64,000 bases of DNA from an uncultured Pseudomonadota bacterium. GTDB lineage: Bacteria > Myxococcota_A > UBA796 > SXON01. The stretch is from NCBI GenBank assembly GCA_903844155.1, contig CAIMSU010000103.1, forward strand, positions 2,491 to 66,490, given 5' to 3'. Shown one piece after another: positions 8,469-53,315 of this stretch. The notes beneath the pieces were generated by a model, which was not told where the DNA came from, did not search any database, and saw only the letters and a list, made by a program, of their open reading frames with translations. The position numbers and the translations under genes are program-made. How positions within the stretch are numbered: the stretch's first letter is position 1; the number at the start of each line of letters is the position of its first letter.

Positions 8469-8496
8469 GGCCGCTCCACGTCGCGATCCTCGCCCA

Positions 8497-8925
8497 CTAC
8501 GTCCGCAACCGGAACGCCCCGGCGGCGGTGACGTAGCCACTCTCGATGTTCGTGCCCGAGGCGTTCTGCACCGCCAGCGCGTAGCGCATCTTGACGCCGA
8601 GCTTGGTGACGTCGTTGAAGTCGGCCTGGATCGTGGGCGCGGCGCTGCCGGCTGCGGTGAAGGCAAACAGCGCGAACGGCGCCGACCACACCCGCGCGTC
8701 GATGCTCCAATACCCGACGATCTGCCACTGGAACTGCGGCGTGACGTTGTCGCCGTGCGTGTGGAAGCTGATCGCCTCCACGTGGGGTCCAAGGTCAGTG
8801 CCGTCAGCGACATCGATGTCGATGTAGCGCGGTGTCGCGACGAGGCCGTTGGTCTGGGCGAAGTACTCGAACAAAAACGGGATCACGCGGACTTTGCCGG
8901 TTCCCTGGGTGAGCTGGAGGGCCAT
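8497..8925 (-). CDS. Small beta-rich hypothetical protein
   Basis: 142 aa, protein-like composition, alternating hydrophobic strands; first gene of a three-gene minus-strand unit. Confidence 0.75.
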   Translation of the reverse strand: MALQLTQGTGKVRVIPFLFEYFAQTNGLVATPRYIDIDVADGTDLGPHVEAISFHTHGDNVTPQFQWQIVGYWSIDARVWSAPFALFAFTAAGSAAPTIQADFNDVTKLGVKMRYALAVQNASGTNIESGYVTAAGAFRLRT

Positions 8926-8997
8926 TGTGCGGTTCTCGGGGTGGAGCCTCGTCGGCGAGATGCCGGCGATGAACGCAGGTTAGCGTGCCCTAGTCTG

Positions 8998-9204
8998 TCA
9001 AGGGGTTTTTTGGTCTTTTTTCATGGCCCCCCGCTCACCCTTGTCGGCGACGCTGTCCGACTCGTCGGCGTCGGTGTCGGCCGCGGAGTCCGGGACGGAG
9101 TCGGAGAAGGAGTCCGCGGAGGTTGAATCCGCGGTTGAAACAACTGAATCGGGCGGCAGTGCCGTGCGGCAAGCGACAAGGAGGGCGAGCAAACCGAGGG
9201 TCAT
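8998..9204 (-). pseudogene. Short, possibly truncated lipoprotein (signal plus Asp/Ser linker only)
   Basis: MTLGLLALLVAC lipobox, DS-rich linker, then ends in an A-rich tract; ATGA overlap with 9201-9602. Confidence 0.5.
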
Positions 9205-9602
9205 GGAGCCATCGTAGCCCCAACCCCCATCCCCGCCCACACCAGGATCAGCGGCACCCAGAGCACCAGCGCGTCGGGGTTGTCGTTGAGCGCCGCCGCC
9301 AGCAGGATCAACGCGCCAAATCCGTGGCTCACGAGGACGAACCGTCGCAACCAGAGCGGTGGGCGACGCACGTTGAGCAGCAGCAGGCCCCCGCTGACAC
9401 CGCAGGCGAACGCCGCGACGACCACCAGGAGAGCGAGGAAGGCCAGCGCACCGCCCGACCACATCCCCGCGTAGCTCCCACACAATCCCACAAACGCCCC
9501 GCCGACCACGTCCACCACACCGACCGTCACGCGGAGCAGAACCCGGAGCACGGGCGTTCGGGAGGGCTCGCCAGGGTCGCTTGGCGGGTGGGACCCGGAC
9601 AT
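9201..9602 (-). CDS. Small membrane protein (about 4 TM segments)
   Basis: Hydrophobic segments; tightly packed with neighbours. Confidence 0.65.
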   Translation of the reverse strand: MSGSHPPSDPGEPSRTPVLRVLLRVTVGVVDVVGGAFVGLCGSYAGMWSGGALAFLALLVVVAAFACGVSGGLLLLNVRRPPLWLRRFVLVSHGFGALILLAAALNDNPDALVLWVPLILVWAGMGVGATMAP

Positions 9603-13325: not shown

Positions 13326-13590
13326 GGAGCAAGCCCGGCATGCGAGGGGCACAAAAGCAAGGTGCGGACCACGACAGCGCCCTACCGTCCCCGCCCGGCC
13401 GGGTCAACGCGCGGGGGCCATGCCCCGCCGCCACCTGGCTGGCCAAGTTGAAGGCGCGACTTCGTGCCCCGCACGAAGCGTGCCTTCGACGCGGTCAGCA
13501 GCGGTCGCGCTCGCCCGAACCTGCGCAGGTGTGGACGGGTCAAGAGAGGTCACGAACACGCGTGGCGGCTCGAAAGCCAAGGCGCGACGA

Positions 13591-13633
13591 GAATAAACAG
13601 CCAACACCGGACCGAAGGGGCCGGTGTTGGCTG
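13591..13633 (-). terminator. Intrinsic-terminator-like hairpin
   Basis: 13-bp stem CAGCCAACACCGG/CCGGTGTTGGCTG; minus-strand loop contains cTTCGg and is followed by TTTATTC. Confidence 0.55.
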
Positions 13634-13802
13634 CACGACGCCGGCCGATTGCAGGTCGCTACGTTACCCTCCGTCAGCCGACGTACCGCCGGCAAAGGTC
13701 CCCCATGTCCCGCTCGCTCTGACTGTCCCCCCAACCCGGGGTTCCCGGGTCCACGCACCGCGAGCGCTGACCGATCTTCGGGGCGTTTGCCCTGGAGATC
13801 CA

Positions 13803-14930
13803 ATGTCCGATCAGACTTCTTCACTCGCCAACGTCGACGCGATCGTCGCCGGCGTCATCGCACCAGCCGCCGCCACTGTCGACCGCGATGGGGCATTTCC
13901 CGCCGCTGCCATCCGGGCGTTGGGTGAAGCCGGGATCCTCGGCCTTCTCATCCCCGAAGCCAACGGTGGCCTTGGCCTCGGGCCGGACACCGCCGCGCTT
14001 GTGGTGGAGCGCATCGCGGGCGCCTGCGCCAGCACGGCCATGGTCGTCTGCATGCACTTCTCCGGCTCCGCGGTGCTCGCGCAACACGGAACTGTCGAGG
14101 TCCAACGCGAGGTCGCAGCCGGCCGGCACCTCTCCACGCTCGCGTTCTCGGAGACCGGCTCGCGCAGTCACTTCTGGGCGGCGATGTCCAGCGCGAAGGT
14201 CGATGGCGACACCGTCGTCCTGGACGCGCAGAAGTCCTGGGTGACGTCTGCGGGCCACGCGACCGCGTACGTCTGGTCGTCGCGCCCGGCGACTGCGGAG
14301 GGTTTTTCGACGATCTGGCTGGTCCCCCGTGGATCCGCGGGCCTGTCAGCCCCCGCCGGCTTCGACGGCATCGGGCTACGCGGCAACGACTCGACGCCGA
14401 TCTCGGCCGCTGGCGTCCGCATTCCCGAGGCGAACCGGCTCGGACCGGACGGCAAGGGCTTTGACGTGATGATGGGGATCGTCCTGCCGAACTTCAACCT
14501 GTACAGCGCCGCCGTCAGCATCGGCCTCGCGAGCGCGGCGCTCGCCCGAACCTGCGCGCACGCGGGCGCGACCAGGCACGAGGAGGCAGGCACGTCGCTC
14601 GCCGAATTGCCGACGATCCGCGCCCACATCGCGCGGATGCAGATCAAGGTGGACATGACCCGGCTGCTCTGGCTCGACACCATCGCGGCGATGGGCGCCG
14701 GCAGGCCCGACACGATGCTCCGCGTGCTGGAGGTCAAGGCGGCAGCCGCCGAGACCGCGCTGGAGGTCACCGCGACGTGCATGCGCGTGTGCGGCGGCGT
14801 CGCGTTTCGCAAGGAAGTCGGCGTCGATCGCGCGTTCCGCGACGCCCAGGCCGCCAGCGTGATGGGCCCGACGACCGACGTGCTGTGGGATTTCATTGGC
14901 AAGGCCGTCACCGGCCTGCCGCTCTTCTAA
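13803..14930 (+). CDS. Acyl-CoA dehydrogenase-fold flavoprotein (non-canonical)
   Basis: IPEANGGLG, LAFSETGS, KSWVTS, GLRGNDS, CGGVAF, FRDA; GGAG RBS before ATG 13803. Confidence 0.9.
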   Translation: MSDQTSSLANVDAIVAGVIAPAAATVDRDGAFPAAAIRALGEAGILGLLIPEANGGLGLGPDTAALVVERIAGACASTAMVVCMHFSGSAVLAQHGTVEVQREVAAGRHLSTLAFSETGSRSHFWAAMSSAKVDGDTVVLDAQKSWVTSAGHATAYVWSSRPATAEGFSTIWLVPRGSAGLSAPAGFDGIGLRGNDSTPISAAGVRIPEANRLGPDGKGFDVMMGIVLPNFNLYSAAVSIGLASAALARTCAHAGATRHEEAGTSLAELPTIRAHIARMQIKVDMTRLLWLDTIAAMGAGRPDTMLRVLEVKAAAAETALEVTATCMRVCGGVAFRKEVGVDRAFRDAQAASVMGPTTDVLWDFIGKAVTGLPLF

Positions 14931-14950: not shown

Positions 14951-15799
14951 ATGCGCCCTTTCATCCTCGGTGCGGTCGCCTATGACCCAAAGGTCGTAAC
15001 CATCTGGGACGGCTTCAAGCTGTACTTCGAGGCCAACGGCCTGTCGTTCGACTACGTGCTTTTCCACAACTACGAACGGCAGGTCGAAGCCCACTTTGCG
15101 GGCGTGATCGACGTCGCGTGGAACTCACCGCTGGCATGGGTCCAGGCGCAGCGGATCGCCACCCGCCTCGGGCGAAGGGCCCAGGCGGTGGCGATGCGAG
15201 ACACCGACCAGGACCTGACCTCCGTGGTGCTGGTGCGGACCGAGGGGCCGGCGACGATTGCCGACCTGACTGGGCGACGAATCGGCGTTGGAGCAATGGA
15301 TTCACCGCAGGCGACGCTACTGCCGCTGCTGCAGCTCGCGGAGCGGGGCCTCGACGTCCACCCCGACCATCCCAATGTCGTCCGGCACGACGTCCTCGTC
15401 GGCAAGCACGGCGACCACATCGGCGGCGAGCGTGAGGCCGTACGGGCGCTCCTGCACGGGGATGTCGATGCTGCCTGCATCATCGACGGCAACCTGGCCG
15501 CGTTCACCCAGGAGGGCACCGTTCGTGCGGGCGCGTTGCGCGTGCTGGCGACGACCCCAGCCTACGACCACTGCAACTTCACCGTGTTGGACGGCACCGC
15601 CACCCGACCGCTGACCCGCTTCCTGGCGTTGCTCCACGGAATGTCCTGGGGCGAGGCGGACACGCGGCGGCTGATGGATCTGGAGGGGCTGAAAGCCTGG
15701 CGCCCGGGCAGGACGACTGGCTACTCGGCGTTGGACCGGGCCTGCACCCGCTTCGGCACCGCCGACGCCTTCGTTGCCCAGCAGGTCGCGCGGGGATGA
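14951..15799 (+). CDS. PhnD/SsuA-like substrate-binding-fold protein without signal peptide
   Basis: IDVAWNSPL, SVVLVR, IADLTGRRIGVG..DS, GDVDAA; GGAGG RBS. Confidence 0.8.
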   Translation: MRPFILGAVAYDPKVVTIWDGFKLYFEANGLSFDYVLFHNYERQVEAHFAGVIDVAWNSPLAWVQAQRIATRLGRRAQAVAMRDTDQDLTSVVLVRTEGPATIADLTGRRIGVGAMDSPQATLLPLLQLAERGLDVHPDHPNVVRHDVLVGKHGDHIGGEREAVRALLHGDVDAACIIDGNLAAFTQEGTVRAGALRVLATTPAYDHCNFTVLDGTATRPLTRFLALLHGMSWGEADTRRLMDLEGLKAWRPGRTTGYSALDRACTRFGTADAFVAQQVARG

Positions 15800-17010
15800 C
15801 GCGGCGACGGGTCGTGGACCTGACCGGCGCGCGCATGGACCAGGGCGCCGCGCTGATCGTCCGCCACGCCCTCGCTGACATGGGGCCGGGCGACGAGGTC
15901 CGCGTGGTCGGCGACGACGCCTCCCTTGTCCCGACGCTGCGGGCGCTCGCACGCGCGCTCGGCGCCCCCTTCACCGTCGAGGCGGATGGCGCCTGCGTCC
16001 TCGGCGCGTCCACCCACCCCGACGGCCGTCGCACCGGCGGCATGCTCGTGCCCACGGCGCCGGCCGACCACGCCCACCCGCGATGGGGCCTCGCGGCGCG
16101 CGGTACACTGGTGGAGGCCGGTGGACCCGAATTCGCCTTTCCGCTCGCCGAGAAGCGCGCCGTCTGGACCGACGAATTGGCGCGGCTCTACGCGCAGGCC
16201 GCCGCGGCGCAGTGGGACCCAGCGACGGCGATCCCGTGGGCCGAGCCGCGCTGCGACGACGACGCCGTGGAGGCCGCGGTCGTGCAGGTCATGGCCTACC
16301 TGGTCGAGAACGAGACGGCCGCGCTGCTGGTCCCGGCACGCTTCTGCGCCCAGGTTCACCCGCACTTTCGCGAGGTGCTCCAGCTCCTCGCCATCCAGAC
16401 CGCTGACGAGGCCCGTCACATCGAGGTTTTTACGCGTCGCGCCGGGTTGGAGGCGCCGCGCGGCCCCGGGCCGGCCCCGATGCCACCCCTCTCGACCGTC
16501 GGCGGCCAGACCAGCCTGAAGAGCCTCGTTGACGAGCCCGACTTTGCCCTTGCAAGCTTTCTTCTCTCCGTCCTCGGCGAGGGATCGTTCCTGTCCCTGC
16601 TCCGGTTCCTGGACCGCTACGCGCCCGACGCCGTCACCCGCGCCGTCGCCCGCCTCGCCGCGCAGGACGAGGCCCGCCACGTCGCCTTTGGCCTCGCGCA
16701 CCTCGAACGTCAGACAGCCCTCGACCCGTCGCTCCGGCCCCAGCTGGCGGCAGCCGTCCACGCGCGCCACGACGCCTTGGCGCACACCGCCGGGTTGAAC
16801 GCCGAGGTTTTCGATGCGCTCGTGCTCATCGCCGGCCACCAGCCCAATCGCCCAGCGTGGGACCCCGTCGGCATCGCAACAGGTTGGAACGCCGTGCAGG
16901 AGCTGATCGCCGAGATGGACGCGGGCCGGCAGGTTCGGCTCCGTCGACTCGGGTTCTCGGGGGCCGAGGCCGCGGCGTTGAGCGCGCTGCATACGCGGAA
17001 TTTCATGTGA
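15796..17010 (+). CDS. TusA-like N-domain fused to a ferritin-like (AurF/R2-type) di-iron domain
   Basis: VDLTG...LADMGPGDEVRVV N-terminus; QWDP..AIPW, ENE, DEARH, GEG, DEARH; ATGA overlap. Confidence 0.8.
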   Translation: MTRRRVVDLTGARMDQGAALIVRHALADMGPGDEVRVVGDDASLVPTLRALARALGAPFTVEADGACVLGASTHPDGRRTGGMLVPTAPADHAHPRWGLAARGTLVEAGGPEFAFPLAEKRAVWTDELARLYAQAAAAQWDPATAIPWAEPRCDDDAVEAAVVQVMAYLVENETAALLVPARFCAQVHPHFREVLQLLAIQTADEARHIEVFTRRAGLEAPRGPGPAPMPPLSTVGGQTSLKSLVDEPDFALASFLLSVLGEGSFLSLLRFLDRYAPDAVTRAVARLAAQDEARHVAFGLAHLERQTALDPSLRPQLAAAVHARHDALAHTAGLNAEVFDALVLIAGHQPNRPAWDPVGIATGWNAVQELIAEMDAGRQVRLRRLGFSGAEAAALSALHTRNFM

Positions 17011-17459: not shown

Positions 17460-18863
17460 ATGCCCCTCCTCCTCCTCGCCCTCCTCGCCTGCTCAGGCGC
17501 GCCCGCGCCCGTCGTCGCGCCCCCGAAGCCCGTCGCCCCAGCGGGTCCGACCTTCGACTATTCGGCGAAGGCGGCCGCGATGAACGTCATCCTCATCAGC
17601 ATGGACGCGCTGCGCTTTGACCGCACTGGCGCGGGTGGCGGACACGACACGCCCAACCTCGACGCCTTCGCGAAAGAGGCGGTCGTGTTCACGCACGACA
17701 CCTCCGCCGCGCCGTGGACGTTGCCCTCGCACATGGCGATCTTCACGGCCCGGTGGCCCTCGTTGCACGGCGTCACCAACAAGCTCGTCCCGAATCCGGG
17801 CGGCGGCGACCCGGTCTTCACCCGCCTCGCGGACAGCATTCCCACGTTCCCGGAGGAGCTGACGAAGAAGGGCTGGGAGGCCGTTGCGTTCACCGGCGGC
17901 GCGGGCGTGTCCGGAAAGTTCGGCTACAACCGGGGCTTCACCAGCTACCTCGACGACAAGGCGTTCGCCGGCATGGACTACACGGGACCGGCCGCCGAGG
18001 CCTGGCTGAAGGACCACGGCAAAGAGCACTTCTTCATGTTCTTCCACGGGTATGACGCGCACGGCCAGCACGAGCTCATCGGCGAGGACCCGCGGGCGGC
18101 GGTGCCCGACTACCACGGCAAGCTCGATGGCAGCATCAAGGAACAGGCGACGCTGCGGGAGGAGGGCCTCGCGCAGATCAAGAAGCCCGGCGATCCGCCG
18201 TCGCTCGTCGGCGTGTTGGACAAGGAGGACGCCCGCTTTTTGATGGAGGTCTACGACGCGAAGGTGAAGGCGGCCGATGCCCGCCTCGCGATCTTCCTGC
18301 AGCAGCTCAAGGATCAAGGCCTCCTCGACACCTCCATCATCGTCGTCCTCGGCGATCACGGCGATGAATTCATGGAGCACGGCTACATCGACCACGGCGC
18401 CACCCTCTGCGACCACCAGCTCCACGTCCCGCTGATGATCCGCTTCCCGCACGGCGACGGCGCCCGGGTTGTCGACGATGCCGTCCGCAGCATCGACGTG
18501 TTCCCGACCGTCTTCGACGCCCTCGGCCTCCCGCCCGTCGCCGGCGTGAACGGCCAGAGCCTGCTCCCCGTCCTCAAGGGACAGAAGTTGAACCTGCCGA
18601 TCTACGCCGAATCCGACTACCGCCTCTTCGTCCACCTCCGCATGGAGCGCGAGGCCTCCAAAAAGCTGATCCTCGACATGGAAGACGACCAGCGCTCGCT
18701 CTACGACCTGGGGACCGACCCCGACGAGCAGAACGACCTCTCGACGACCGACGCGCGCACCACCTATGAGATGGAGCAGGGCGTCCGGACCTGGCTCAAC
18801 ACGATGAAGACCGACCCCAAGAGCTACCTCGGCGTTCAGGAAGAGCACATCAAGCTTTTCTGA
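17460..18863 (+). CDS. Sulfatase-family (alkaline phosphatase superfamily) lipoprotein
   Basis: LLAC lipobox, NVILISMDALR, TPNLD, PWTLPSH, GDHGDEF..HG..DH, HVPLMI. Confidence 0.9.
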   Translation: MPLLLLALLACSGAPAPVVAPPKPVAPAGPTFDYSAKAAAMNVILISMDALRFDRTGAGGGHDTPNLDAFAKEAVVFTHDTSAAPWTLPSHMAIFTARWPSLHGVTNKLVPNPGGGDPVFTRLADSIPTFPEELTKKGWEAVAFTGGAGVSGKFGYNRGFTSYLDDKAFAGMDYTGPAAEAWLKDHGKEHFFMFFHGYDAHGQHELIGEDPRAAVPDYHGKLDGSIKEQATLREEGLAQIKKPGDPPSLVGVLDKEDARFLMEVYDAKVKAADARLAIFLQQLKDQGLLDTSIIVVLGDHGDEFMEHGYIDHGATLCDHQLHVPLMIRFPHGDGARVVDDAVRSIDVFPTVFDALGLPPVAGVNGQSLLPVLKGQKLNLPIYAESDYRLFVHLRMEREASKKLILDMEDDQRSLYDLGTDPDEQNDLSTTDARTTYEMEQGVRTWLNTMKTDPKSYLGVQEEHIKLF

Positions 18864-18895: not shown

Positions 18896-18924
18896 TTGAC
18901 GCACCCCCGGTGTGCCTGTACCCT
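18896..18924 (+). promoter_or_regulatory. Sigma70-like promoter
   Basis: TTGACG-N17-TACCCT, 44 bp upstream of the radical SAM start. Confidence 0.55.
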
Positions 18925-18968
18925 TCAAGTGCGGCGTTCCCTCCTTCGGGGCGCGTCAGGAGTTCCCG

Positions 18969-20582
18969 TTGGCTACCCCCTCCCTCGACCCCGGCCTCTA
19001 CACCACGGCGGGTGCTCTGGTCGATCAGATGCTGATGGACACGATGCTTCAGCAGGGCCTCGCACCTGTCAGCACGTCGACGAAGATGCCCCGGGTCACG
19101 CTCGTCGTTGGTCCGTCACCATTCACGATGCCGCGCGGCTGGGAGTTTTTCCTCACGTCGCCCTACGAGGGCATCACGTACATCGCGACCGTGCTGCACA
19201 ACGCCGGGTACCCCGTGCGGATCGTGGATGTACGCTACGACCGCACGCCGCTGCAGACAGCCTACAACCAGATCATGGAAGGGACGGACGTTCTTGGGAT
19301 CGCGACGTTTGAGGACAACTATCCGTTCTGCGAGGACTTGATTCGCGAGTGCAAGAACGCCAAGCCCAACATGCCGATCCTGCTTGGCGGCTCGCTGGTG
19401 ACCAGCGTGCCGCACGTGTTCATGCGCGAGACACGCGCGGACATCGCGGTGATCTCCGAGGGCGAACTGACCATTCTGGAGGTCATGGACGCGTTCACGC
19501 AGGGGATGTGGTCCTCGCGGCTGCCGGAGATCAAGGGGATCTGGTACCGCGACGCGAAGGGCGTGCCGCACGCCAACCCGCCGCGGGGGCAGATGCCGAA
19601 CCTCAACGCGCTGCCGAACATGCGCCTCGACCTCTGGCCGCAGTCCAAGGATCCGCGGGGTTTGCAGCCGCAGATCATCGCGTCGTACTCGCGCGGCTGC
19701 AAGATGGACTGCTCGTTCTGCTACCGCACCACGCCGCAGGAGCGGGTGAAGTCGCCCGAGAAGCTCCGCAGCGAACTGACGTGGTTGAAGCAGCAATACA
19801 AGACCGAGTTCATCTTCTTCGTGGACCTGACGTTCACTGCGCACAAGAAGCAGACGCTGCAGTACCTCGACGTGATCCGCGAGCACGACATCCGCTGGAC
19901 CTGCCTCACCCGCAACGCGGACGTGGACGCGGAAGTCGGCAAGGCGATGGGGACGGCGGGCTGCGACATCGCGCTCTACGGAGTGGAATCGCTCACGCCC
20001 GCGGCCCTGAAGGAGGCGCGCAAGGGCTCCACGGAGAACCTGGCCATGAAGGCGATGAAAAACACCTGGGACGGTGGCGTGCGCTACGGCGGGCTCACAA
20101 TCGTGGGTTTGCCGGGCGAAACCGAGGAGAGCCTCGACCACATGTGCAAGTGGGGCGAGGAGTACAAGCACATCACCCGCGTGAAGTACCTCTCGGCCAT
20201 GCCCGGCACGACCGTGTACCGGCAGGGCCTGGAGACGAAGGAGATCGCCAACGAAGTCGAGCATCTACGCTGGCTCTCGGTAGAGCAGGCGTTGGAGCGC
20301 GACGAATTCCTGAACTACAACGGCCTCCCCGACCACGTGATGCGCAGCGCCTACAAGCGGCTCTACGACAGCTACCAGGAAGGGCCCGTCATGGACTTCC
20401 ACCATTATCCCGAGCATTTTGCCTACTTCGACCCCGAGCCGACGACCGCGTGGCGCGCGGAGTTCTCCTCGGCCGCCGCCGTCCCGGACCCCGGGACGCT
20501 CAAATACCGCGGCTTGAAAGCCTCCTCTCCCGGCGTCACGCTTGAGCGCACGTCCTCTGGCGACCTCGCCCTCTCCATCTGA
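18969..20582 (+). CDS. B12-binding domain radical SAM protein
   Basis: SRGCKMDCSFC (CxxxCxxC); N-terminal cobalamin-binding pattern (YIATVL, ILLGG, EGE); GVES, IVGLPGET; start TTG 18969 after GGAG (uncertain). Confidence 0.92.
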   Translation: MATPSLDPGLYTTAGALVDQMLMDTMLQQGLAPVSTSTKMPRVTLVVGPSPFTMPRGWEFFLTSPYEGITYIATVLHNAGYPVRIVDVRYDRTPLQTAYNQIMEGTDVLGIATFEDNYPFCEDLIRECKNAKPNMPILLGGSLVTSVPHVFMRETRADIAVISEGELTILEVMDAFTQGMWSSRLPEIKGIWYRDAKGVPHANPPRGQMPNLNALPNMRLDLWPQSKDPRGLQPQIIASYSRGCKMDCSFCYRTTPQERVKSPEKLRSELTWLKQQYKTEFIFFVDLTFTAHKKQTLQYLDVIREHDIRWTCLTRNADVDAEVGKAMGTAGCDIALYGVESLTPAALKEARKGSTENLAMKAMKNTWDGGVRYGGLTIVGLPGETEESLDHMCKWGEEYKHITRVKYLSAMPGTTVYRQGLETKEIANEVEHLRWLSVEQALERDEFLNYNGLPDHVMRSAYKRLYDSYQEGPVMDFHHYPEHFAYFDPEPTTAWRAEFSSAAAVPDPGTLKYRGLKASSPGVTLERTSSGDLALSI

Positions 20583-20600
20583 CCGAGGCTCGAAAATCGC

Positions 20601-21077
20601 GTGAGTCAAGCATCGGATCGAGCGGCGGCTCGCTATCAGCAGCCCGCGCTCAAGGAGGCGCTCACCTGCGAGCACCTGGAAGCGTGTTTTCGGGACGAGG
20701 CATCGGCGGCGACTGAGTGCGCCTACTTCGCCCGCATCGCCGAGATCGAGGGCGAGCCGGAGATGGCGCGCGCGCTGCGGGAGTTTGGCGAACAGCACGC
20801 CTGCAACGCAAAAGGCAGCCTGGACCTGTTGATGCGGGCGCGTGAACCGCTGACGGGACGGACGATGGGCAGCACGGTCGAGAACGTCGCCGCGATGCGG
20901 TCGTTCTACGCGGGCGACACGGAGACAGAGGACCGGCGGGCGAGGACGGCCAGGAACGAGGGGTTTTCCGACATTGCGAGCTGGTTTGCCAGCCTCGCGC
21001 GGCTGCGTCACGCGCACGCCGAGCGCCTCGCTGCGTTGGCGCCGGCCGCCGCTGAACCGAAGCCGGAGGGGTCATGA
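20601..21077 (+). CDS. Degenerate rubrerythrin-like protein
   Basis: YFARIAEIEG.PEMA, ARTARNEGFSDIASWF; ExxH motifs altered. Confidence 0.8.
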   Translation: MSQASDRAAARYQQPALKEALTCEHLEACFRDEASAATECAYFARIAEIEGEPEMARALREFGEQHACNAKGSLDLLMRAREPLTGRTMGSTVENVAAMRSFYAGDTETEDRRARTARNEGFSDIASWFASLARLRHAHAERLAALAPAAAEPKPEGS

Positions 21078-23059
21078 CCACCCCCTACGATGCCGCCAGC
21101 ATCGTCATCCTCGAGGGCCTCGACGCCGTTCGCATGCGTCCGGCGATGTACGTCGGGTCGACGGGCGCAGCGGGCGTCATGCAGCTCGTCATCGAGGTGC
21201 TCCAGAACGCGCTCGACGAGGCGCTCGCCGGCCACGCCTCGCACATCACCGTGACCGTGGACGCCGCCGGGCGCTGGACCGTCGATGACGACGGGCGCGG
21301 CATGCCCGTCGACCAGCACAGCAGCGGGCGACCGGTCCCTGAGGTGCTCGTCAGCGAACTGCACGCCGGGGCCAAGTTCCGCGACGGCGCGTACCGTCTC
21401 CCAGGCGGTCTGCACGGCGTCGGATTGACCTGTGTGAACGCCCTCTCCGCGGAGTTCGCGCTGGAGGTCCGGCGCGACGGCGGCCGTTGGCGCGGCCACT
21501 GGGTCGCCGGCAAGCTCGCCGGGGCGTTCGGGCGCGCCGAGGGCAAGGACGCACACGCGCTCGACACCGGCACGCGCGTCACCTTCCTTCCGGACGCCGC
21601 GATCTTTGGCGGTGAACGGGCGGATCCGCAGGCCGTCGAGCGGTGGCTGCGGTCACAGAGCTGGCTGACGTCCGGGCTCACGTGCACGCTTACCGTCGCC
21701 GGCGTTGGGGCGGACGCGGCCCGATCGGTGCGGTTTTCTTCCGACGAAGGCGTCGCGGGCTTCGCGCGGTGGCTCGCCGGGCATCAGGAATTCGTCCATC
21801 CAACGCCCATCGTCGTGCACGCATCGGCGGGTGAGGGCCCGGAGGTCGACGCCGCGCTGCTCTGGACCCGCGCGTTCGCCGAAGACCTCGTCTGCTTCGT
21901 CAACCACGTCCACACGCCCCTGGGCGGTGCCCACGCGGACGGGTTCCGGGCCGCGGTCGGGCACGCGCTGACCCGTTACGCGCGCGATGCGCGGCTGCTC
22001 GACGCCGAGGGGGCGAAGGGCTCAGAAGCAGACCGCATCGACGGATCCGACGCGATGGAGGGGCTGGTCGCCGTCCTGTCCGTCCGCATGCACGACCCGC
22101 ATTTTGAGGGGCAGACAAAGACGCGCCTCCTCGACCCCGCTGCCGGCCGTGCCGTCGAGGATGCCGTCGGCACCGCGCTGAGCGCCTGGCTCCGCGCCCA
22201 TCCCGTCGACGCCGCTGCCATCGTCGGCCGCGCGATCGAAGCCAGCCGCGCCCGTCTCGCCAGCCGTCGCGCGAGCGAGCGCGCCCGCTACGAGCGCGTC
22301 GAGCACCTCGTCGACAAGGACATCTACCGCCAGCAATTCGGCATCCGCTCGAAGAACTGGCACACGTCGGCCGACTGGATCACCAACGCCGGCCTCCTCG
22401 GCCTCCACGGCGGCTCCTCGCAGATGCAGGAGGACGCCGTCGTCCTCGACGTGTGCTGCGGCTCCGGTGTCGTCGGCAACTCGTTCCGCGGCAAGGTCGG
22501 CAGGATCATCGGCCTCGACCTCACGCCCGAGATGGTCGCGCTCTCGCGCACGCGCCTCGACGAGGTCGTGCAGGGCGACGTCTACGAGATCCCCTTCGCG
22601 GACAACACCTTCGACGGCGTCTGCAACCGCGAGGTGCTGCACCTGCTTCCCCAGCCTGAACGCCCGGTATCAGAGATCTTTCGCGTGCTCAAGCCCGGCG
22701 GCCAGTTCGTCGTCGGCCAGTGGGTCCCGTTCTCGGCCGTCGACGGTCCGTGGATGTTCCAGGTCGTCAAGAAAAAGCAGCCGTTGTTCGTCAACAACCT
22801 GTACGACGAGGACATGCGCGCGCTCCTCGCCGGCGCCGGATTTGTCGGCCTCACAACCCAGGAATTCCTGCAGTGGGAGGACATCGACAACTGGATCGCG
22901 ACCTGGGAGACGCCCGCGCTCCACCGTCACCAGATCCGGGATTTGTACAACCACTGTCCGGCCGAGGTCCGCGCCGTCCACCCGTTTGAGATTTCGGCGA
23001 CGGGCGCCATTCGGGATTGCTGGCGGTGGGTGGTGTACTCGGCGTTCAAACCCGCGTAG
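21074..23059 (+). CDS. GyrB-like GHKL ATPase/transducer fused to a class I SAM methyltransferase
   Basis: LEGLDAVRMRPAMYVG, EVLQNALDE, DDGRGMP, GGLHGVG, FEGQTK; then VLDVCCGSG, GLDLTPEM, IPFADNTFD, RVLKPGG; no TOPRIM EGDSA motif. Confidence 0.92.
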   Translation: MTTPYDAASIVILEGLDAVRMRPAMYVGSTGAAGVMQLVIEVLQNALDEALAGHASHITVTVDAAGRWTVDDDGRGMPVDQHSSGRPVPEVLVSELHAGAKFRDGAYRLPGGLHGVGLTCVNALSAEFALEVRRDGGRWRGHWVAGKLAGAFGRAEGKDAHALDTGTRVTFLPDAAIFGGERADPQAVERWLRSQSWLTSGLTCTLTVAGVGADAARSVRFSSDEGVAGFARWLAGHQEFVHPTPIVVHASAGEGPEVDAALLWTRAFAEDLVCFVNHVHTPLGGAHADGFRAAVGHALTRYARDARLLDAEGAKGSEADRIDGSDAMEGLVAVLSVRMHDPHFEGQTKTRLLDPAAGRAVEDAVGTALSAWLRAHPVDAAAIVGRAIEASRARLASRRASERARYERVEHLVDKDIYRQQFGIRSKNWHTSADWITNAGLLGLHGGSSQMQEDAVVLDVCCGSGVVGNSFRGKVGRIIGLDLTPEMVALSRTRLDEVVQGDVYEIPFADNTFDGVCNREVLHLLPQPERPVSEIFRVLKPGGQFVVGQWVPFSAVDGPWMFQVVKKKQPLFVNNLYDEDMRALLAGAGFVGLTTQEFLQWEDIDNWIATWETPALHRHQIRDLYNHCPAEVRAVHPFEISATGAIRDCWRWVVYSAFKPA

Positions 23060-23068
23060 AATGCGGGG

Positions 23069-23518
23069 GTGAGACGAACCCGCAAACGATCTGGGCTGTT
23101 GCCGGTGGTCATCCTCGTGGCCGGCGAGGCGTTGGGGTGTGGCGGAGGCAACTTCTTTGACAGCGCGAGCGGGTGCTGCTTTCACACCTGCAACGCCTGC
23201 TCACCCGAGGGCATGCACCAATGCTCCGACACCGGCGACCACGCCGATGCCGTTTGCACCGACCCGACGGGGATGTACGCCGACAGCGCGGACACGGGCT
23301 CGCGCGAGACCGGGCACGACAGCGCGAGAGACAGCGCCGCGTCCGACTTCACCCCCGACACCGCTGTCGACACCGCCCCGCCTGATTCTGGGGGTCGGGA
23401 CTCCGGAATCGACACCGGGGTGGACACCGCCCCGCCTGACTCCGGGATTGGCGACACCGCGACCTCAGACACGGGCGCTGGCGACACCGGCGTCGACACG
23501 GCGACGTCCACGCCGTGA
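23069..23518 (+). CDS. Cys-rich exported peptide/lipoprotein with DT/DS tail
   Basis: Basic N-terminus, hydrophobic stretch, ALGC; core GCCFHTCNAC...QC...VC; VDTAPPDSG occurs twice in the tail. Confidence 0.7.
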   Translation: MRRTRKRSGLLPVVILVAGEALGCGGGNFFDSASGCCFHTCNACSPEGMHQCSDTGDHADAVCTDPTGMYADSADTGSRETGHDSARDSAASDFTPDTAVDTAPPDSGGRDSGIDTGVDTAPPDSGIGDTATSDTGAGDTGVDTATSTP

Positions 23519-24168
23519 CCCCTGCCGTCCGCTCCGCCTGGGCTGGCCGGACGGCCGCCGAGTACCGCTCAGCCGCCGTCGCCAGCGAGATGCTGCACTG
23601 GTGCATCGTGCTCGGCGTCGCCCCTGACCTCGTCGCCGAGGTGCACCGCGTGGTCGACGACGAGCTCAACCACGCCGACATGTCGCGCGCTGTGCACGAG
23701 GCAGCCGGCGGGCTGCCGACGGACGTGGTCATCGCGCGCGAGAGCTTGTCCCTGACGATCTGCCCGACGGAGACGTTGGAGCGACGGGCGTTGGCGGCGG
23801 CGTTCCAGGAGTTCGCCGTACACGAGACCGTCGCGCTGGAGTGCTTCCGCGAGATGCGCAAGCACGCGCTGGTGCCCATCGTCCGTTCGACGGTCGACCG
23901 GATCGCGAGGGATGAGGCCCGGCATCGCCGGGTTGGTTGGCGGCTCGTCGAATCCCTGTTGGCGCAGACCGGCGAGCGCAAGTGGCTGCAGACGATGGTG
24001 GCGCCGGCCGTCGACGGCGTGCTCCTCGCGTACGGGACGCGTCACGCGCCGACAGCGGAGGATCTGCGGTGGGGCCTGCTGGACCCGGACGCCTACCTGC
24101 GAGCCGTGCGACGGGCGAGAGCCGGGCCGATCGCCCGGGAACTCGCAAGTAACATACTGTATTTCTGA
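23515..24168 (+). CDS. Ferritin-like di-iron domain protein
   Basis: AEYRS, DELNH, HETVA, DEARH..GW; GTGA overlap with the upstream peptide. Confidence 0.85.
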   Translation: MTPAVRSAWAGRTAAEYRSAAVASEMLHWCIVLGVAPDLVAEVHRVVDDELNHADMSRAVHEAAGGLPTDVVIARESLSLTICPTETLERRALAAAFQEFAVHETVALECFREMRKHALVPIVRSTVDRIARDEARHRRVGWRLVESLLAQTGERKWLQTMVAPAVDGVLLAYGTRHAPTAEDLRWGLLDPDAYLRAVRRARAGPIARELASNILYF

Positions 24169-24565: not shown

Positions 24566-25144
24566 TCAACCCCACCCGATCGTCCCCTCCACCCCCTCGT
24601 AGAGATCGTCCATCGAGACGGCGATGCCGAGACATGCGATCTGCACGTCCCCGCCCACGATGTCGAGCAGCGTCCAGCTCCCGTCCGCGTTGCGCGCGTA
24701 GCTGTTCACCCAGCGGCGGCGCGAGTCGATGAGCAGGACCGCCTGGACCGACGCGCGACGACGGTAGTGCTCCAGCTTTGCGCCGCGGTCGTAATTCTGG
24801 GTGCTCTCCGACAGGACCTCCACGATGACGGTCGGGTTGAGCAGGGTCGGCGGGTTGGTGGCGGCGAACTCCCGCTCGCCGCAGACGACCAGGACATCGG
24901 GGTAGGCGTAGAGGCCGGTCTCGTCAATGTGGGTGCGACAGTCGGACACGAACGGGCGACAAGGGCCGCCTTTCAACTCGGCATGAAGGGCCGCGTAGGC
25001 GTTCCCCGTGAGCACGAGGTGCGCCTCGCTCGGCCCCGCCATCGCGATGATCTCGCCGTTCACATACTCATGCTTGCCCTCGTTCGCGAGATCGAACGCG
25101 AGGTACTCCGCTTCGGTGACGAAATGCTGTGCGGGTCCGGCCAT
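24566..25144 (-). CDS. Uma2 family endonuclease
   Basis: KHEYVNGEIIAMAG, YPDVLV, PTVIVEVLSEST..YDRG.K..Y. Confidence 0.93.
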   Translation of the reverse strand: MAGPAQHFVTEAEYLAFDLANEGKHEYVNGEIIAMAGPSEAHLVLTGNAYAALHAELKGGPCRPFVSDCRTHIDETGLYAYPDVLVVCGEREFAATNPPTLLNPTVIVEVLSESTQNYDRGAKLEHYRRRASVQAVLLIDSRRRWVNSYARNADGSWTLLDIVGGDVQIACLGIAVSMDDLYEGVEGTIGWG

Positions 25145-25239
25145 GCCACAGTCTACCCCACTCCTCGCCGCTGTTGCCACCGTCCAAAGCCAAGTGTATA
25201 CCGCACGCATCACCCGCCCTCGGCGGTGACGGAGCGTGC

Positions 25240-26124
25240 ATGCCATCGTCCATCGTCAAAACTCTCTGGATCTTCGCCGGAATCCTGGCGAGCACGCCGC
25301 TCATCGTCCTCCCCCTGGCCTGCGGCTACTCGGGCACGCCCGCGGATCCCTCGACCGGCGACTGGGACGGCGACGGCTTCACCGGCGCGCAGGGCGACTG
25401 CAACAACACCGACGCGACCTTCTACCCAGGCGCCCCTGACACCGTCGGCGACGGGATCGATGAGAACTGCGACCTCACGGACGGCGTCGACGCAGACGGC
25501 GACGGCCACGCCGACATCCCCTCCGGCGGCGACGATTGTGACGACGCCGCGCGCGACACGCACCCCGGCGCGTTCGACGCCTGGTACGACGGCATCGACG
25601 AAGACTGCGCCGGCAACGACGATTACGACAAGGATGGCGACGGCGTCGACTCGTCCGACTACGGCGGCGAGGATTGCAACGACAACAACCCCGCCATCCC
25701 CGGCCCCGAGGTCTGGGACAACATCGACAACAACTGCGACGGCTTCGTCGACGAGATCACCGCCACGTTCACCTACCAGGACGACGGGAACGGCGGCAGC
25801 GTCATGGTCGTCACGCTGCAGAACAGCGATCCAGGCGGCGAGTCGATGGGGCTGGCGGAGACGAGCCAGGGCGGCGCGGGCTGGTACGGCGAGGACTGCA
25901 TGACGCGCCACGGGAGTTGCCATCTGCTTGGCGCGGCTGGCGGCGAGTACACCGTCGTCGACAACACGGCGGACGTACGGATGGGCAGCACGACCTACTT
26001 TAGCGAGGCGCGGCTGGCCGGGAGCGCGGTCGTGTTCTGGGACACCCACAACAACTGCACGGCGATCGGGTCGGGTGCCGACTACTACGCCGCAGAGGGC
26101 TGTGACATTGAAGAGGGCTGGTAG
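25240..26124 (+). CDS. Lipoprotein with MopE-type putative metal-binding repeats
   Basis: LAC; repeated DxDGDG...DCxD...PGA...DGIDExC. Confidence 0.85.
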   Translation: MPSSIVKTLWIFAGILASTPLIVLPLACGYSGTPADPSTGDWDGDGFTGAQGDCNNTDATFYPGAPDTVGDGIDENCDLTDGVDADGDGHADIPSGGDDCDDAARDTHPGAFDAWYDGIDEDCAGNDDYDKDGDGVDSSDYGGEDCNDNNPAIPGPEVWDNIDNNCDGFVDEITATFTYQDDGNGGSVMVVTLQNSDPGGESMGLAETSQGGAGWYGEDCMTRHGSCHLLGAAGGEYTVVDNTADVRMGSTTYFSEARLAGSAVVFWDTHNNCTAIGSGADYYAAEGCDIEEGW

Positions 26125-40381: not shown

Positions 40382-40693
40382 GTGCCCTCCAAGCGAGCCG
40401 TCATGGTCGCCGCGCTGCTCGTTGTTCACACGGCGGTGAGCGTGCGCGCGCTGAGGGACCACGACTTCTTCTGGTTGTTCCGCTTCGCCGTGGCGGACTG
40501 GCCGCAGGGGCAGATCTTCTCCGACCTGACCTGCATGCGCCTCGTCGTGACGTCGTGGATGGTCGTCGACGCGCGCCGGTCCGGGCGAACGGTGTGGCCC
40601 TACCTCCTCGCCACGTTGCTGCTCGGCTCCTTCGGCCCTTTGACCTACCTTCTTGTCCGGGAGCTGCGTCCGACCCCGGCACCGGTCGGCTGA
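40382..40693 (+). CDS. DUF2834-like membrane protein
   Basis: DL...WMVVDARR.G...WPY..ATL.LGS.GPL.YL. Confidence 0.75.
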   Translation: MPSKRAVMVAALLVVHTAVSVRALRDHDFFWLFRFAVADWPQGQIFSDLTCMRLVVTSWMVVDARRSGRTVWPYLLATLLLGSFGPLTYLLVRELRPTPAPVG

Positions 40694-40748
40694 CGCTGGC
40701 CGAGTCCCGGGCCACCGGGCTAAGGCCTGCCGCTCCCCGAGGTTCCGA

Positions 40749-42257: not shown

Positions 42258-42260
42258 GGG

Positions 42261-43622: not shown

Positions 43623-44023
43623 CACCCCAACCGACCACAACTGCGGAGAGCAGAAGTGGTAGATCCGGCGACGCGCGGTTCGGCGGCATGCTGGCAGTCG
43701 GTATCGTCGCGGGCGCGCTCGGCGCGTGGGCTGGCTGGTTGGCGCGTGGAGAGCTTGGCCCTCCGCACGGCACCGAGCAGTACACGCTGACGGAGGCGGT
43801 GCCGCTGCGGTCCGACTCGAGGGTCGGGGTCCTGCCGGCGGGGACCACGATGTACTTTGACCGGGGCTTTGACGAGGGGTTCGGGCGGTGGGTGGTGTAC
43901 GTGAACGCGAATGAGCGACCGCCCACGGCGCGTGGCCCGGCTGACGCGATCGCCCCGCTCTGGGCTGACCTGAGCGGCGACGATCCGCCTCCCGTGTGTG
44001 TCCTGGCCGGAGCGACGCGCTGA
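43619..44023 (+). CDS. Membrane-anchored hypothetical protein
   Basis: GTGA overlap; TM segment; LPAGTTMYFDRGFDEGF; alternative start ATG 43688. Confidence 0.65.
   Translation: MTPQPTTTAESRSGRSGDARFGGMLAVGIVAGALGAWAGWLARGELGPPHGTEQYTLTEAVPLRSDSRVGVLPAGTTMYFDRGFDEGFGRWVVYVNANERPPTARGPADAIAPLWADLSGDDPPPVCVLAGATR
43634..43665 (+). repeat. Palindromic element copy 3 (degenerate)
   Basis: ACCACAACTGCGGAGAGCAGAAGTGGTAGATC; 27/32 identical to the reverse complement of copy 2. Confidence 0.75.
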
Positions 44024-44180
44024 CGGCGAGGGGTTTGAGCGGCGTCCCACAGCGGGTCGTGGATCGGCGCGGGGCCAGGCGAGCCGCCCCAAGGCGCCCG
44101 AAGCCCCCGCGCCCGGCGTGAACGGGTTGCCACCGGCCGCGAACCCGCGTACCCTGCAGCCAACCGAAGCAGGTGCCACG

Positions 44181-46085: not shown

Positions 46086-46177
46086 CGCGGCACCGACCCG
46101 GGCCGAGGACGGAGTCCCGCGCTGACCAACGGTTACAAGCCCAACCCCCGCCCGGCGCGGTACGCTCGGAGGCTGCG

Positions 46178-53271: not shown

Positions 53272-53315
53272 ACGCTGGACGCGGACTGCTTCCGCGGCCC
53301 ACGGCGCCGCCCGCG

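What the first reader, a model, noticed from the sequence alone, without database searches (positions are those of the whole stretch)
18896..24168. Candidate undescribed operon: B12 radical SAM, pseudo-rubrerythrin, GyrB-ATPase/methyltransferase fusion, Cys-rich peptide, ferritin-like oxidase
Seen: five same-strand genes follow a TTGACG-N17-TACCCT promoter, with gaps of 18 bp, ATGA overlap, 9 bp and GTGA overlap. Established: B12 radical SAM enzymes, class I methyltransferases and ferritin-like di-iron enzymes are common tailoring enzymes, and gyrase ATPase domains bind aminocoumarins. Inference: this is a modification or biosynthetic system built partly from repurposed housekeeping folds. It could be RiPP-like acting on the Cys-rich peptide, a pathway for a gyrase-directed compound with a decoy or sensor, or an ATP-gated methylation machine. 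I do not recognise this combination.
Basis: partly seen in the sequence, partly recalled or inferred. Interest (0 to 1): 0.85.

Follow-up and report, generated by a model that had tools for sequence, protein, structure and literature searches.

The report
Nucleoside-sulfamate biosynthesis genes in a myxobacterium
This is not an unknown operon: its first three genes are the radical-SAM, pseudo-rubrerythrin and gyrase-like methyltransferase trio already shown genetically to be needed for building the sulfamate group of the antibiotics nucleocidin and ascamycin, here found in an uncultured myxobacterium.

Summary
The promoter-like TTGACG-N17-TACCCT is conserved in 4 of 4 alignable relatives. The combination has been described. 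[quoted passage not shown] These are three of nine clustered genes whose deletion abolishes sulfamylation in nucleocidin biosynthesis (PMC10946740, PMC4257720). The Streptomyces calvus copies hit the window genes at 62% (rSAM) and 48.5% (fusion, full length).

The other set members lie elsewhere in this genome: NucK-, NucO- and NucN-like genes on contig C277, and a NucL-like gene on C286. Fusion and NucO-like genes co-occur in 37 of 60 related genomes, and both are missing from 21.

The Cys-rich protein and the ferritin-like gene are not part of the set. They gave 0 hits in 80 loci, and they form a separate lipoprotein + ferritin-like module found elsewhere.

New here is the family's spread far beyond actinomycetes (146 species genomes) and a weakly supported pseudo-rubrerythrin/fusion complex. 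The enzymology is still unknown. Verdict: a new member of a known kind.

The parts
17460..18863 (+). Alkaline-phosphatase-superfamily 'sulfatase-like' lipoprotein. It is in the same Thr-type class as the two sulfatase-like proteins of the S. calvus locus, but is not a clear orthologue of either.
   Evidence: Pfam Sulfatase 2.7e-28 and Phosphodiest 7.5e-17. It has T-L-P-S-H where sulfatases carry C/S-x-P-x-R (canonical motif recalled, not from a call). The C277 copy and both S. calvus copies show the same T-x-x-x-H. The N-terminus LLLALLAC looks like a lipoprotein signal. Its orthologue sits directly upstream of the rSAM gene in 10 of 20 loci. Identity to the S. calvus sulfatase-likes is only 25-27%.
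18896..18924 (+). Promoter-like TTGACG-N17-TACCCT in front of the rSAM gene.
   Evidence: Present. Not called by the consensus scan. Both hexamers and the 17-base spacing are conserved in the window and in 4 of 4 alignable relatives.
18969..20582 (+). B12-binding radical SAM enzyme, orthologue of NucJ/AcmJ. The open frame begins at 18912; the probable start is TTG 18969.
   Evidence: Pfam. The CxxxCxxC motif is in the translation. The 560-aa rSAM of S. calvus T3018 hits this gene at 62% over 534 aa, and the next best hit in the genome is 26%. Present in 60 of 80 fusion loci.
20601..21077 (+). Pseudo-rubrerythrin (sulerythrin-like four-helix bundle, no rubredoxin domain, degenerate di-iron site), counterpart of NucQ/AcmQ.
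   Evidence: the ExxH of helix B reads H..N here and is not conserved in 78 family members, and the E of the last ExxH is R. It lies directly upstream of the fusion in 77 of 80 loci, with an ATGA overlap here.
21074..23059 (+). GyrB N-terminal ATPase + transducer (residues 1-~405) fused to a class I SAM methyltransferase (~450-661), orthologue of NucP/AcmP.
   Evidence: 48.5% identity over 660 aa to the S. calvus protein. ATPase and SAM-binding motifs are invariant in 11 and in 18 aligned members. Monophyletic against the genome's own GyrB/ParE.
23069..23518 (+). Cys-rich, Asp/Thr/Gly-rich secreted (lipoprotein-like) protein. Not part of the sulfamylation set.
   Evidence: No family. 0 of 80 and 0 of 20 loci. 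A similar small lipoprotein precedes a ferritin-like gene in L128.
23515..24168 (+). Ferritin-like protein with two ExxH motifs, member of a multi-copy family. Not part of the sulfamylation set.
   Evidence: Weak AurF match. Family found in 47 of 61 genomes, up to 8 copies each, away from the fusion loci. 0 of 80 loci at E<=1e-6.

Best explanation
Window genes 18969-23059 encode the NucJ, NucQ and NucP counterparts of the 'sulfamylation sub-cluster' known from the nucleoside-sulfamate antibiotics nucleocidin and ascamycin.

The rest of the set is in the same genome. NucK-like and NucO-like sulfotransferase folds and a NucN-like pentein enzyme lie on contig C277. A NucL-like methyltransferase lies on C286. 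Thr-type sulfatase-like proteins and an APS kinase are also present. Together these most likely install an -O-SO2-NH2 group on a nucleoside, probably the adenosine 5'-OH, from PAPS-activated sulfate.

Shown elsewhere: deleting nucJ, nucQ or nucP abolishes sulfamylation.

Shown here: orthology, synteny and co-occurrence; intact ATPase, SAM-binding and Fe-S motifs; a degenerate di-iron site.

Inferred:
- The GyrB-like half dimerises on ATP like the gyrase N-gate.
- It sits with the pseudo-rubrerythrin as a non-redox partner.
- It gates a transient (cryptic) SAM-dependent step together with the B12 radical SAM enzyme and the second methyltransferase.

The step is called cryptic because the known product keeps only the ten carbons of adenosine. 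The exact chemistry of S-N bond formation is unknown.
For: Literature:
- The acm gene table lists AcmJ (557 aa, Fe-S oxidoreductase), AcmK sulfotransferase, AcmL UbiE-like methyltransferase, AcmN amidinotransferase, AcmO (444 aa), AcmP (658 aa, 'DNA topoisomerase II') and AcmQ (155 aa, rubrerythrin). acmG and acmK knock-outs lose production (PMC4257720, passages).
- Nine genes, nucI, G, J, K, L, N, O, Q and P, plus the PAPS genes are required for sulfamylation. [quoted passage not shown] Orthology, S. calvus T3018 locus L105 against this genome:
- rSAM to the window gene, 62% over 534 aa (next best 26%).
- Fusion to the window gene, 48.5% over 660 aa.
- NucL-like to C286, 57%.
- NucN-like to C277, 46%.
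- NucO-like to C277, 42%.
- NucK-like to C277, 38-47%.

Neighbourhood over 80 loci: rbr 78 (77 directly upstream), rSAM 60, second methyltransferase 55, ST1 40, ST2 48, pentein 41. In the 42 loci with at least 8 kb on both sides, all six partners are present in 20.

Genome-level profile in 60 relatives: both fusion and NucO-like 37, fusion only 1 (G006, 85% complete), NucO-like only 1 (G028, 76% complete), neither 21.

Other points:
- APS kinase is present.
- ATPase and SAM motifs are invariant.
- The dealanylascamycin formula C10H13ClN6O6S retains no methyl carbon.
- Complex prediction of fusion + pseudo-rubrerythrin gave weak support: score 0.59, best of 3 controls 0.00. That mark was reached by 58 of 80 solved complexes and 2 of 110 mismatched pairs, but at 0.60 or under by only 7 of those 80. 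Runs agree in at least 94% of contacts, and the partner's pLDDT is 81.
Against: - There are no chemical or expression data for this organism.
- The set is split over three contigs of a MAG (4.98% contamination), so one-organism origin is inferred.
- The NucK-like gene on C277 carries an in-frame ~70-aa insert derived from a ~200-bp interspersed repeat.
- There is no clear orthologue of NucG/NucI. Best hits are 27-34% to various sulfatase paralogues, and the linked sulfatase-likes here carry lipoprotein signals that the S. calvus ones lack.
- The S. calvus NucQ-like protein hits the genome's canonical rubrerythrin on C73 better (38%, 1e-23) than the window protein (34%, 2e-10). Its orthology therefore rests on synteny.
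- The mechanistic part (ATP gate, cryptic methylation) is inference only.
Confidence: 0.72

Rival explanations
1. The same conserved enzyme set makes a different sulfur-nitrogen or sulfated metabolite in Myxococcota, with an acceptor other than adenosine, or free sulfamate. The linked, exported Thr-type sulfatase-like lipoprotein would carry out a periplasmic last step.
For: The adenosine-handling genes of the actinomycete clusters were not looked for here. In Myxococcota the sulfatase-like partner carries a lipoprotein signal and is only 25-27% identical to the S. calvus proteins. The actinomycete fusions form their own clade, 16 rows with support 100.
Against: Seven protein families are retained together at 42-62% identity across phyla. 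This argues for the same core chemistry.
Confidence: 0.2
2. RiPP-like system in which the radical SAM enzyme and the methyltransferase modify the downstream Cys-rich peptide.
For: Same strand, with a 9-bp gap after the fusion gene. The best NCBIfam hits of the rSAM include RiPP methylases, but far below their cut-offs.
Against: The Cys-rich ORF is found in 0 of 80 and 0 of 20 related loci. It is missing downstream of the fusion in the closest relative. It has a signal/lipoprotein-like N-terminus. A similar small lipoprotein is paired with a ferritin-like gene elsewhere (L128).
Confidence: 0.03
3. Pathway for a gyrase-directed compound, with the GyrB-like domain as a decoy, sensor or resistance protein.
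For: About 40% identity to GyrB over 400 aa. Producers of gyrase inhibitors are known to carry extra gyrB copies (recalled, not from a call).
Against: The catalytic Glu/Asn/Asp, the Gly-rich lid and the QTK loop are invariant, which suggests an enzyme rather than a decoy. The domain is always fused to a methyltransferase. The S. calvus gene is required for sulfamylation, and the known products inhibit protein synthesis and aminoacyl-tRNA synthetases, not gyrase (abstracts listed).
Confidence: 0.03
4. Decaying remnant: the set is dispersed and partly damaged in this genome and no longer makes a product.
For: Three separate contigs. A repeat-derived in-frame insert sits in the NucK-like gene.
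Against: All seven reading frames are open. The promoter and ribosome-binding site are conserved. Dispersal of the set is common in relatives that keep all members.
Confidence: 0.1

Closest known systems
Nucleocidin cluster sulfamylation sub-cluster of Streptomyces calvus / S. virens (nucI, G, J, K, L, N, O, Q, P)
   Same: Same protein families and the same rbr-then-fusion adjacency. The NucJ-like protein is 62% identical, the NucP-like 48.5% and the NucQ-like 34%. The pseudo-rubrerythrin has a degenerate iron site and the gyrase-like protein a C-terminal methyltransferase.
   Different: Here the set is split over three contigs. No fluorination or glucosylation genes were sought or seen next to it. 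The sulfatase-like partner is an exported lipoprotein and not a clear NucG/NucI orthologue. The host is an uncultured myxobacterium.
Ascamycin/dealanylascamycin cluster of Streptomyces sp. JCM9888 (acmG-acmQ)
   Same: The gene list and sizes match: AcmJ 557, AcmP 658 and AcmQ 155 aa against 537-556, 661 and 158 aa here.
   Different: No acm sequences were available for direct comparison. The alanyl-tRNA-synthetase-like and halogenase genes of that pathway were not searched for here.
DNA gyrase subunit B, 43-kDa N-terminal fragment (e.g. PDB 1KIJ, 1EI1)
   Same: Full-length alignment of ATPase + transducer at 1.5e-80. The N-terminal arm Tyr, the catalytic Glu/Asn/Asp, the Gly-rich lid and the QTK Lys are retained (residue roles recalled).
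   Different: The TOPRIM domain and the GyrA-binding tail are replaced by a class I SAM methyltransferase. The genome has separate full-length GyrB/ParE genes on C319 and C280.
Sulerythrin / rubredoxin-less rubrerythrins (PDB 1J30, 4DI0)
   Same: Four-helix-bundle homology at 3.4e-17 over residues 16-144.
   Different: The di-iron ligands are degenerate across the family. A canonical copy with all ligands exists elsewhere in the genome on C73.

Membership tests
Nucleoside-sulfamate sulfamylation gene set (Nuc/Acm) | B12-binding radical SAM protein of the NucJ/AcmJ type | tested here: met
   62% over 534 aa to the S. calvus T3018 protein, with the next hit in the genome at 26%. Pfam B12-binding + Radical_SAM.
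Nucleoside-sulfamate sulfamylation gene set (Nuc/Acm) | GyrB-N-terminus::methyltransferase fusion (NucP/AcmP) | tested here: met
   48.5% over 660 aa with the same architecture. Groups with 77 fusion proteins apart from the genome's own GyrB/ParE.
Nucleoside-sulfamate sulfamylation gene set (Nuc/Acm) | Pseudo-rubrerythrin (NucQ/AcmQ) next to the fusion gene | tested here: met
   ATGA overlap with the fusion gene. Adjacent in 77 of 80 loci. Degenerate ligands. By best hit alone the result is inconclusive.
Nucleoside-sulfamate sulfamylation gene set (Nuc/Acm) | NucK-, NucO-, NucN- and NucL-like genes in the same genome | tested here: met
   C277 holds ST1, ST2 and the pentein enzyme, and C286 holds the methyltransferase. 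They are unlinked to the window, and the NucK-like gene has a ~70-aa in-frame insert.
Nucleoside-sulfamate sulfamylation gene set (Nuc/Acm) | NucG/NucI sulfatase-like proteins | tested here: inconclusive
   Thr-type sulfatase-like genes lie next to the rSAM gene and next to ST1 on C277. Identity to the S. calvus proteins is only 25-34%, and they carry lipoprotein signals.
Nucleoside-sulfamate sulfamylation gene set (Nuc/Acm) | PAPS supply | tested here: met
   APS kinase PF01583 at 223 bits on C242. This family is common in bacteria (11 of 14 control genomes).
Nucleoside-sulfamate sulfamylation gene set (Nuc/Acm) | The product carries a 5'-O-sulfamoyl group | not testable with these tools
   Needs metabolite analysis.
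DNA gyrase subunit B (working topoisomerase subunit) | TOPRIM domain and C-terminal GyrA-binding region | tested here: not met
   The GyrB models match only positions 8-400 of 641. Residues ~450-661 are Methyltransf_11.
Rubrerythrin (di-iron peroxidase) | Six Glu/His iron ligands and a rubredoxin domain | tested here: not met
   Alignment to 4DI0 and sulerythrin, and to the genome's canonical copy. Family statistics. There is no rubredoxin domain in the 158 aa.
RiPP cluster with the Cys-rich ORF as precursor | Precursor gene conserved with the modifying enzymes | tested here: not met
   0 of 80 and 0 of 20 loci. Absent from the closest relative.
Cobalamin-dependent radical SAM methylases | Methyl transfer to an unactivated centre | not testable with these tools
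   Only the domain pair and the Cys motif are seen. All NCBIfam hits are far below their cut-offs; the best is HpnJ at 124 bits against 578.

The most novel reading that the evidence does not exclude
Sulfamoyl-nucleoside toxins (mimics of AMP that poison aminoacyl-tRNA synthetases) are not an actinomycete rarity. They would be a widespread weapon of uncultured bacteria, near-standard in one order of Myxococcota (38 of 60 genomes). In the myxobacterial version, exported Thr-type alkaline-phosphatase-fold lipoproteins finish or unmask the compound outside the cytoplasm. The translationally coupled pseudo-rubrerythrin and GyrB-like methyltransferase would form an ATP-gated complex that performs a cryptic methylation on the way to the S-N bond.
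Probability: 0.3. Interest if true: 0.65.

Novelty: new member of a known kind. Interest (0 to 1): 0.42.

Why it matters
How nature makes the sulfamate S-N bond is unsolved. The 2023 knock-out study states that its results do not show how or when the amine is introduced. Neither the 2021 review nor the passages found in a 2026 review report biochemistry for these proteins.

This window adds no new kind of system, but the comparison does three things:
1. It defines a core of seven families (rSAM, two sulfotransferase folds, a pentein enzyme, two methyltransferases of which one is fused to GyrB, and the pseudo-rubrerythrin). These travel together across distant phyla and co-occur even when unlinked.
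2. It shows the set in at least 146 species-level genomes, most of them not actinomycetes.
3. It gives a testable pairing of the pseudo-rubrerythrin with the gyrase-like methyltransferase.

If carriers make 5'-O-sulfamoyladenosine-like compounds, these potent translation inhibitors would be far more common in lakes and soils than the handful of Streptomyces producers suggests.

Tried and rejected
- Defence-system reading: PADLOC gave only generic methyltransferase/rSAM hits (mad2 1.8e-14, PDC-M51A 7.9e-09) and nothing for the other proteins. Dropped.
- Hopanoid, lipid, phosphonate and arsenic readings were suggested by weak NCBIfam hits (HpnJ, PhpK, ArsM). Dropped once the Nuc/Acm match was found.
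- Literature searches on GyrB + methyltransferase + radical SAM or sulfotransferase found nothing relevant. The terms 'gyrase B / sulfotransferase / radical SAM / rubrerythrin / methyltransferase' led to the ascamycin paper.
- DUF6027, which matches a 144-aa protein at the edge of the S. calvus locus, is named in 0 papers.
- Among the 20 best-ranked of 1,864 papers, and, I saw none that links nucleocidin or ascamycin genes with Myxococcota or Gemmatimonadota. The ascamycin paper does name Frankia homologues. This covers the held library only.
- The Iyer/Aravind paper PMC2938197 was checked for this neighbourhood and does not contain it.
- ESM Atlas returned only the protein's own cluster.
- RNA evidence: no RNA holder was listed.
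- The supplement of PMC10946740 (its Figure S3 on NucQ ligands) could not be seen. My ligand count rests and may differ from theirs.
- My crude ORF clustering used a GC3 filter that dropped genes in some loci. Counts in this report come from tblastn instead.
- The 20 loci and the 80 loci overlap in genomes, so they are not independent.
- The tree used the window plus 77 of 80 loci. Three were left out because no match without a stop ran from residue 30 or earlier to residue 640 or later.
Full report
OBSERVATION. The five same-strand ORFs exist as described. The four junctions are exactly as stated: an 18-bp gap, an ATGA overlap, a 9-bp gap and a GTGA overlap. Domain content is confirmed:
- B12-binding + Radical_SAM in the first gene.
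- HATPase_c + DNA_gyraseB + Methyltransf_11 in the 661-aa protein.
- No family for the 149-aa Cys-rich ORF.
- Only a sub-threshold AurF match for the 217-aa ORF.

The rubrerythrin match is sub-threshold in Pfam but clear against solved sulerythrin/rubrerythrin chains (3.4e-17). Residues 4-402 of the fusion align end to end with GyrB 43-kDa fragments (1.5e-80).

The promoter-like TTGACG-N17-TACCCT is present. The simple consensus scan misses it. Both hexamers and the 17-base spacing recur at the same place in the window and in all four relatives that aligned, within an otherwise variable spacer. The same alignment, the GGAG 6 bases upstream, and the alignment of the S. calvus protein's first residue move the rSAM start to TTG 18969, giving 537 aa.

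WHAT TRAVELS WITH WHAT. The genome is an 8.1-Mb, 375-contig MAG, 95.6% complete with 4.98% contamination. Source names for close homologues place it in Myxococcota.

The GyrB::methyltransferase fusion is present in 38 of 60 relatives of the same order. Of these, 35 are essentially full length and 3 are cut by contig ends. Across a phylum-wide sample it is present in 20 of 300 other genomes, confined to this order and a few families of the same class.

In 20 fetched loci:
- The rubrerythrin-like gene precedes the fusion in 18.
- The rSAM orthologue is within 10 kb in 14.
- The sulfatase-like orthologue is present in 10.
- The Cys-rich ORF and both ferritin-like ORFs of the window gave no hit.

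A scan of one genome per species found 146 relatives of the fusion, of which 80 loci were kept. Sixteen are named actinomycetes: eleven Streptomyces including S. calvus T3018, three Micromonospora/Verrucosispora, Actinomadura and Umezawaea. The other 64 are MAGs labelled Myxococcota/Deltaproteobacteria, Gemmatimonadota, Acidobacteriota (Pyrinomonadaceae, Angelobacter), Elusimicrobia and others. Several labels are plainly unreliable.

Over these 80 loci:
- Rubrerythrin-like 78, of which 77 lie directly upstream.
- rSAM 60.
- A stand-alone paralogue of the methyltransferase domain 55.
- Sulfotransfer_3 protein ST1 40.
- Weak sulfotransferase-like ST2 48.
- DDAH/amidinotransferase-like pentein enzyme 41.
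- Sulfatase-like 44.
- Cys-rich, ferritin-217 and ferritin-404 all 0.

Among the 42 loci with at least 8 kb on both sides, all six partners accompany the fusion in 20.

IDENTIFICATION. A literature search on the protein names led to the ascamycin cluster table (PMC4257720). It lists AcmG sulfatase, AcmI acylsulfatase, AcmJ 557-aa Fe-S oxidoreductase, AcmK sulfotransferase, AcmL UbiE-like methyltransferase, AcmN amidinotransferase, AcmO 444 aa, AcmP 658-aa 'DNA topoisomerase II' and AcmQ 155-aa rubrerythrin.

The knock-out study of the nucleocidin cluster (PMC10946740; abstract, passages and Conclusions read) shows that nucI, G, J, K, L, N, O, Q and P, plus the PAPS genes, are each required for sulfamylation. 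[quoted passage not shown] It states that these genes have no paralogues in producers. [quoted passage not shown]

Locus L105 comes from S. calvus T3018 and has the order: DUF6027, sulfatase-like, pentein, sulfatase-like, HTH, rSAM, ST1, methyltransferase, rubrerythrin-like, fusion, ST2. A purine nucleoside phosphorylase gene lies nearby. The matching of these ORFs to nuc gene names is mine, by size, order and annotation.

Its proteins find the following in this genome:
- The window's rSAM at 62% over 534 aa (next hit 26%).
- The window's fusion at 48.5% over 660 aa.
- The C286 methyltransferase at 57%.
- The C277 pentein enzyme at 46%.
- C277 ST2 at 42%.
- C277 ST1 at 38-47%.

The rubrerythrin-like protein is the exception. 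The S. calvus copy hits the canonical rubrerythrin on C73 better than the window protein, so its assignment rests on position.

At genome level the fusion and the ST2 family are both present in 37 relatives and both missing in 21. Each is alone in one incomplete genome. Kin are not independent, but the pattern is mosaic across seven families. An APS kinase is present.

THE PROTEINS.

Fusion. In alignments of 11 and of 18 members, several features are invariant:
- The N-terminal arm Tyr.
- The ExxxN...DE segment, DxGxG, the K..F...Y segment, the GLHGVG lid and the QTK loop.
- On the methyltransferase side, the LDVCCGSG motif and downstream motifs.

The roles of these residues in GyrB and in class I methyltransferases are recalled, not tested. 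The fusions form one group apart from the genome's own GyrB and ParE, and the actinomycete copies form one well-supported clade.

Pseudo-rubrerythrin. Against 4DI0, sulerythrin and the canonical C73 copy, the ExxH of helix B reads H..N in the window protein and is not conserved across 78 members. The Glu of the last ExxH is Arg. Structural positions (EG, D75, N95, EG, W128) are invariant.

Sulfatase-likes. The window copy, the C277 copy and both S. calvus copies have T-x-x-x-H where sulfatases carry C/S-x-P-x-R (motif recalled). This is the pattern of Thr-nucleophile members of the alkaline-phosphatase superfamily, many of which are transferases. The two myxobacterial copies carry lipoprotein-like signals and the S. 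calvus ones do not.

HOW IT LIKELY WORKS. It is established genetically that the S. calvus counterparts of all three window genes are needed to install the sulfamate. What each protein does is unknown.

From the anatomy I infer the following:
1. PAPS-dependent sulfation is carried out by the NucK-like enzyme.
2. Nitrogen is supplied through the pentein enzyme.
3. An ATP-driven, GyrB-like dimer carries two methyltransferase domains. It is paired with the non-redox pseudo-rubrerythrin and works with the B12 radical SAM enzyme and the second methyltransferase.

Dealanylascamycin is C10H13ClN6O6S, that is, only the ten carbons of adenosine. Any methylation must therefore be transient, or these folds do something other than net methyl transfer.

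A complex prediction of fusion plus pseudo-rubrerythrin, with paired alignments of 18 genomes, gave weak support. The score was 0.59 against a best control of 0.00. That mark was reached by 58 of 80 solved complexes and 2 of 110 mismatched pairs, but at 0.60 or under by only 7 of those 80. The runs agree in at least 94% of contacts, and the partner's pLDDT is 81. With the ATGA overlap and the 77-of-80 adjacency as prior, I take binding as likely but not shown.

THE LAST TWO GENES. The ferritin-like family occurs in 47 of 61 genomes, with up to 8 copies each, on other contigs than the fusion. One weak member (28% identity, E 2e-6) lies 8 kb from the fusion in G012.

In 2 of 5 fetched copies a small ORF with a signal-like N-terminus lies just upstream of the ferritin-like gene. 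In L128 it is a 72-aa lipoprotein-like ORF with CxxC and Asp/Thr/Gly repeats, overlapping the ferritin-like gene by 4 bases, as in the window.

The closest relative (88% identity in the fusion) has a type III polyketide-synthase-like ORF downstream instead; that name comes from reading its translation, not from a family search. I read these two genes as an unrelated module that happens to follow the trio here. Read-through transcription is possible and untested.

CAVEATS.
- The set is split over contigs C103, C277 and C286.
- The NucK-like gene carries an in-frame insert of about 70 residues, made by a ~200-bp interspersed repeat that gives 64 further BLAST matches in this genome.
- There is no expression or chemical evidence.

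VERDICT. This is a new, myxobacterial and dispersed member of the known nucleoside-sulfamate sulfamylation gene set. Its value lies in the breadth of distribution and the conserved core that the comparison reveals, not in a new kind of system.

Noticed in passing
window 13436-13634: A ~200-bp interspersed repeat with an internal hairpin. It gives 64 further BLAST matches in this genome at 79-97% identity, often at contig ends or in tandem. It supplies the false first ~60 codons of ORF 13464-14930, an acyl-CoA dehydrogenase.
   Followed up: partly
own genome contig C277 (L120) 8110-9387, minus strand: The NucK-like sulfotransferase gene contains one copy of that repeat in frame, adding about 70 residues after 'HPWPWIP' without a stop. 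This could be a real insertion or an assembly artefact.
   Followed up: partly
window 23069-24168; L128 1423-2324: A small Cys-rich, Asp/Thr/Gly-rich lipoprotein-like ORF overlapping a ferritin-like ORF with two ExxH motifs looks like a recurring two-gene module. It belongs to a multi-copy family in this order: 47 of 61 genomes, up to 8 copies each. Its function is unknown.
   Followed up: partly
window 15796-17010: A 404-aa protein with a weak AurF / R2-like ferritin match in its C-terminal half. It is not conserved with the sulfamylation genes, 0 of 80 loci.
   Followed up: no
window 24566-25246 (-) and 25129-26124 (+): A Uma2-family putative endonuclease with 11 further copies in the genome. 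Next to it is a MopE-type metal-binding-repeat protein from a heavily expanded family, with dozens of tblastn hits.
   Followed up: no
L076 13841-17530 (Streptomyces monomycini): Next to the conserved set lie a PAPS_reduct/CysD-like gene (323 aa), an APH-family kinase and a second 460-aa B12/radical SAM gene. The sizes recall AcmA (320 aa) and AcmH (453 aa) of the ascamycin cluster, so this species may carry an ascamycin-type cluster.
   Followed up: no
L042 2174-2989 (-) and homologues: A 272-aa protein distantly related to the B12/Fe-S epoxyqueuosine reductase QueG (2.3e-07, far below cut-off) recurs beside the ST1-ST2-pentein genes in several myxobacterial loci.
   Followed up: no
window 40401-46196 (-) and 48958-53883 (-): Two very long ORFs of 1931 and 1641 aa. 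Not examined.
   Followed up: no
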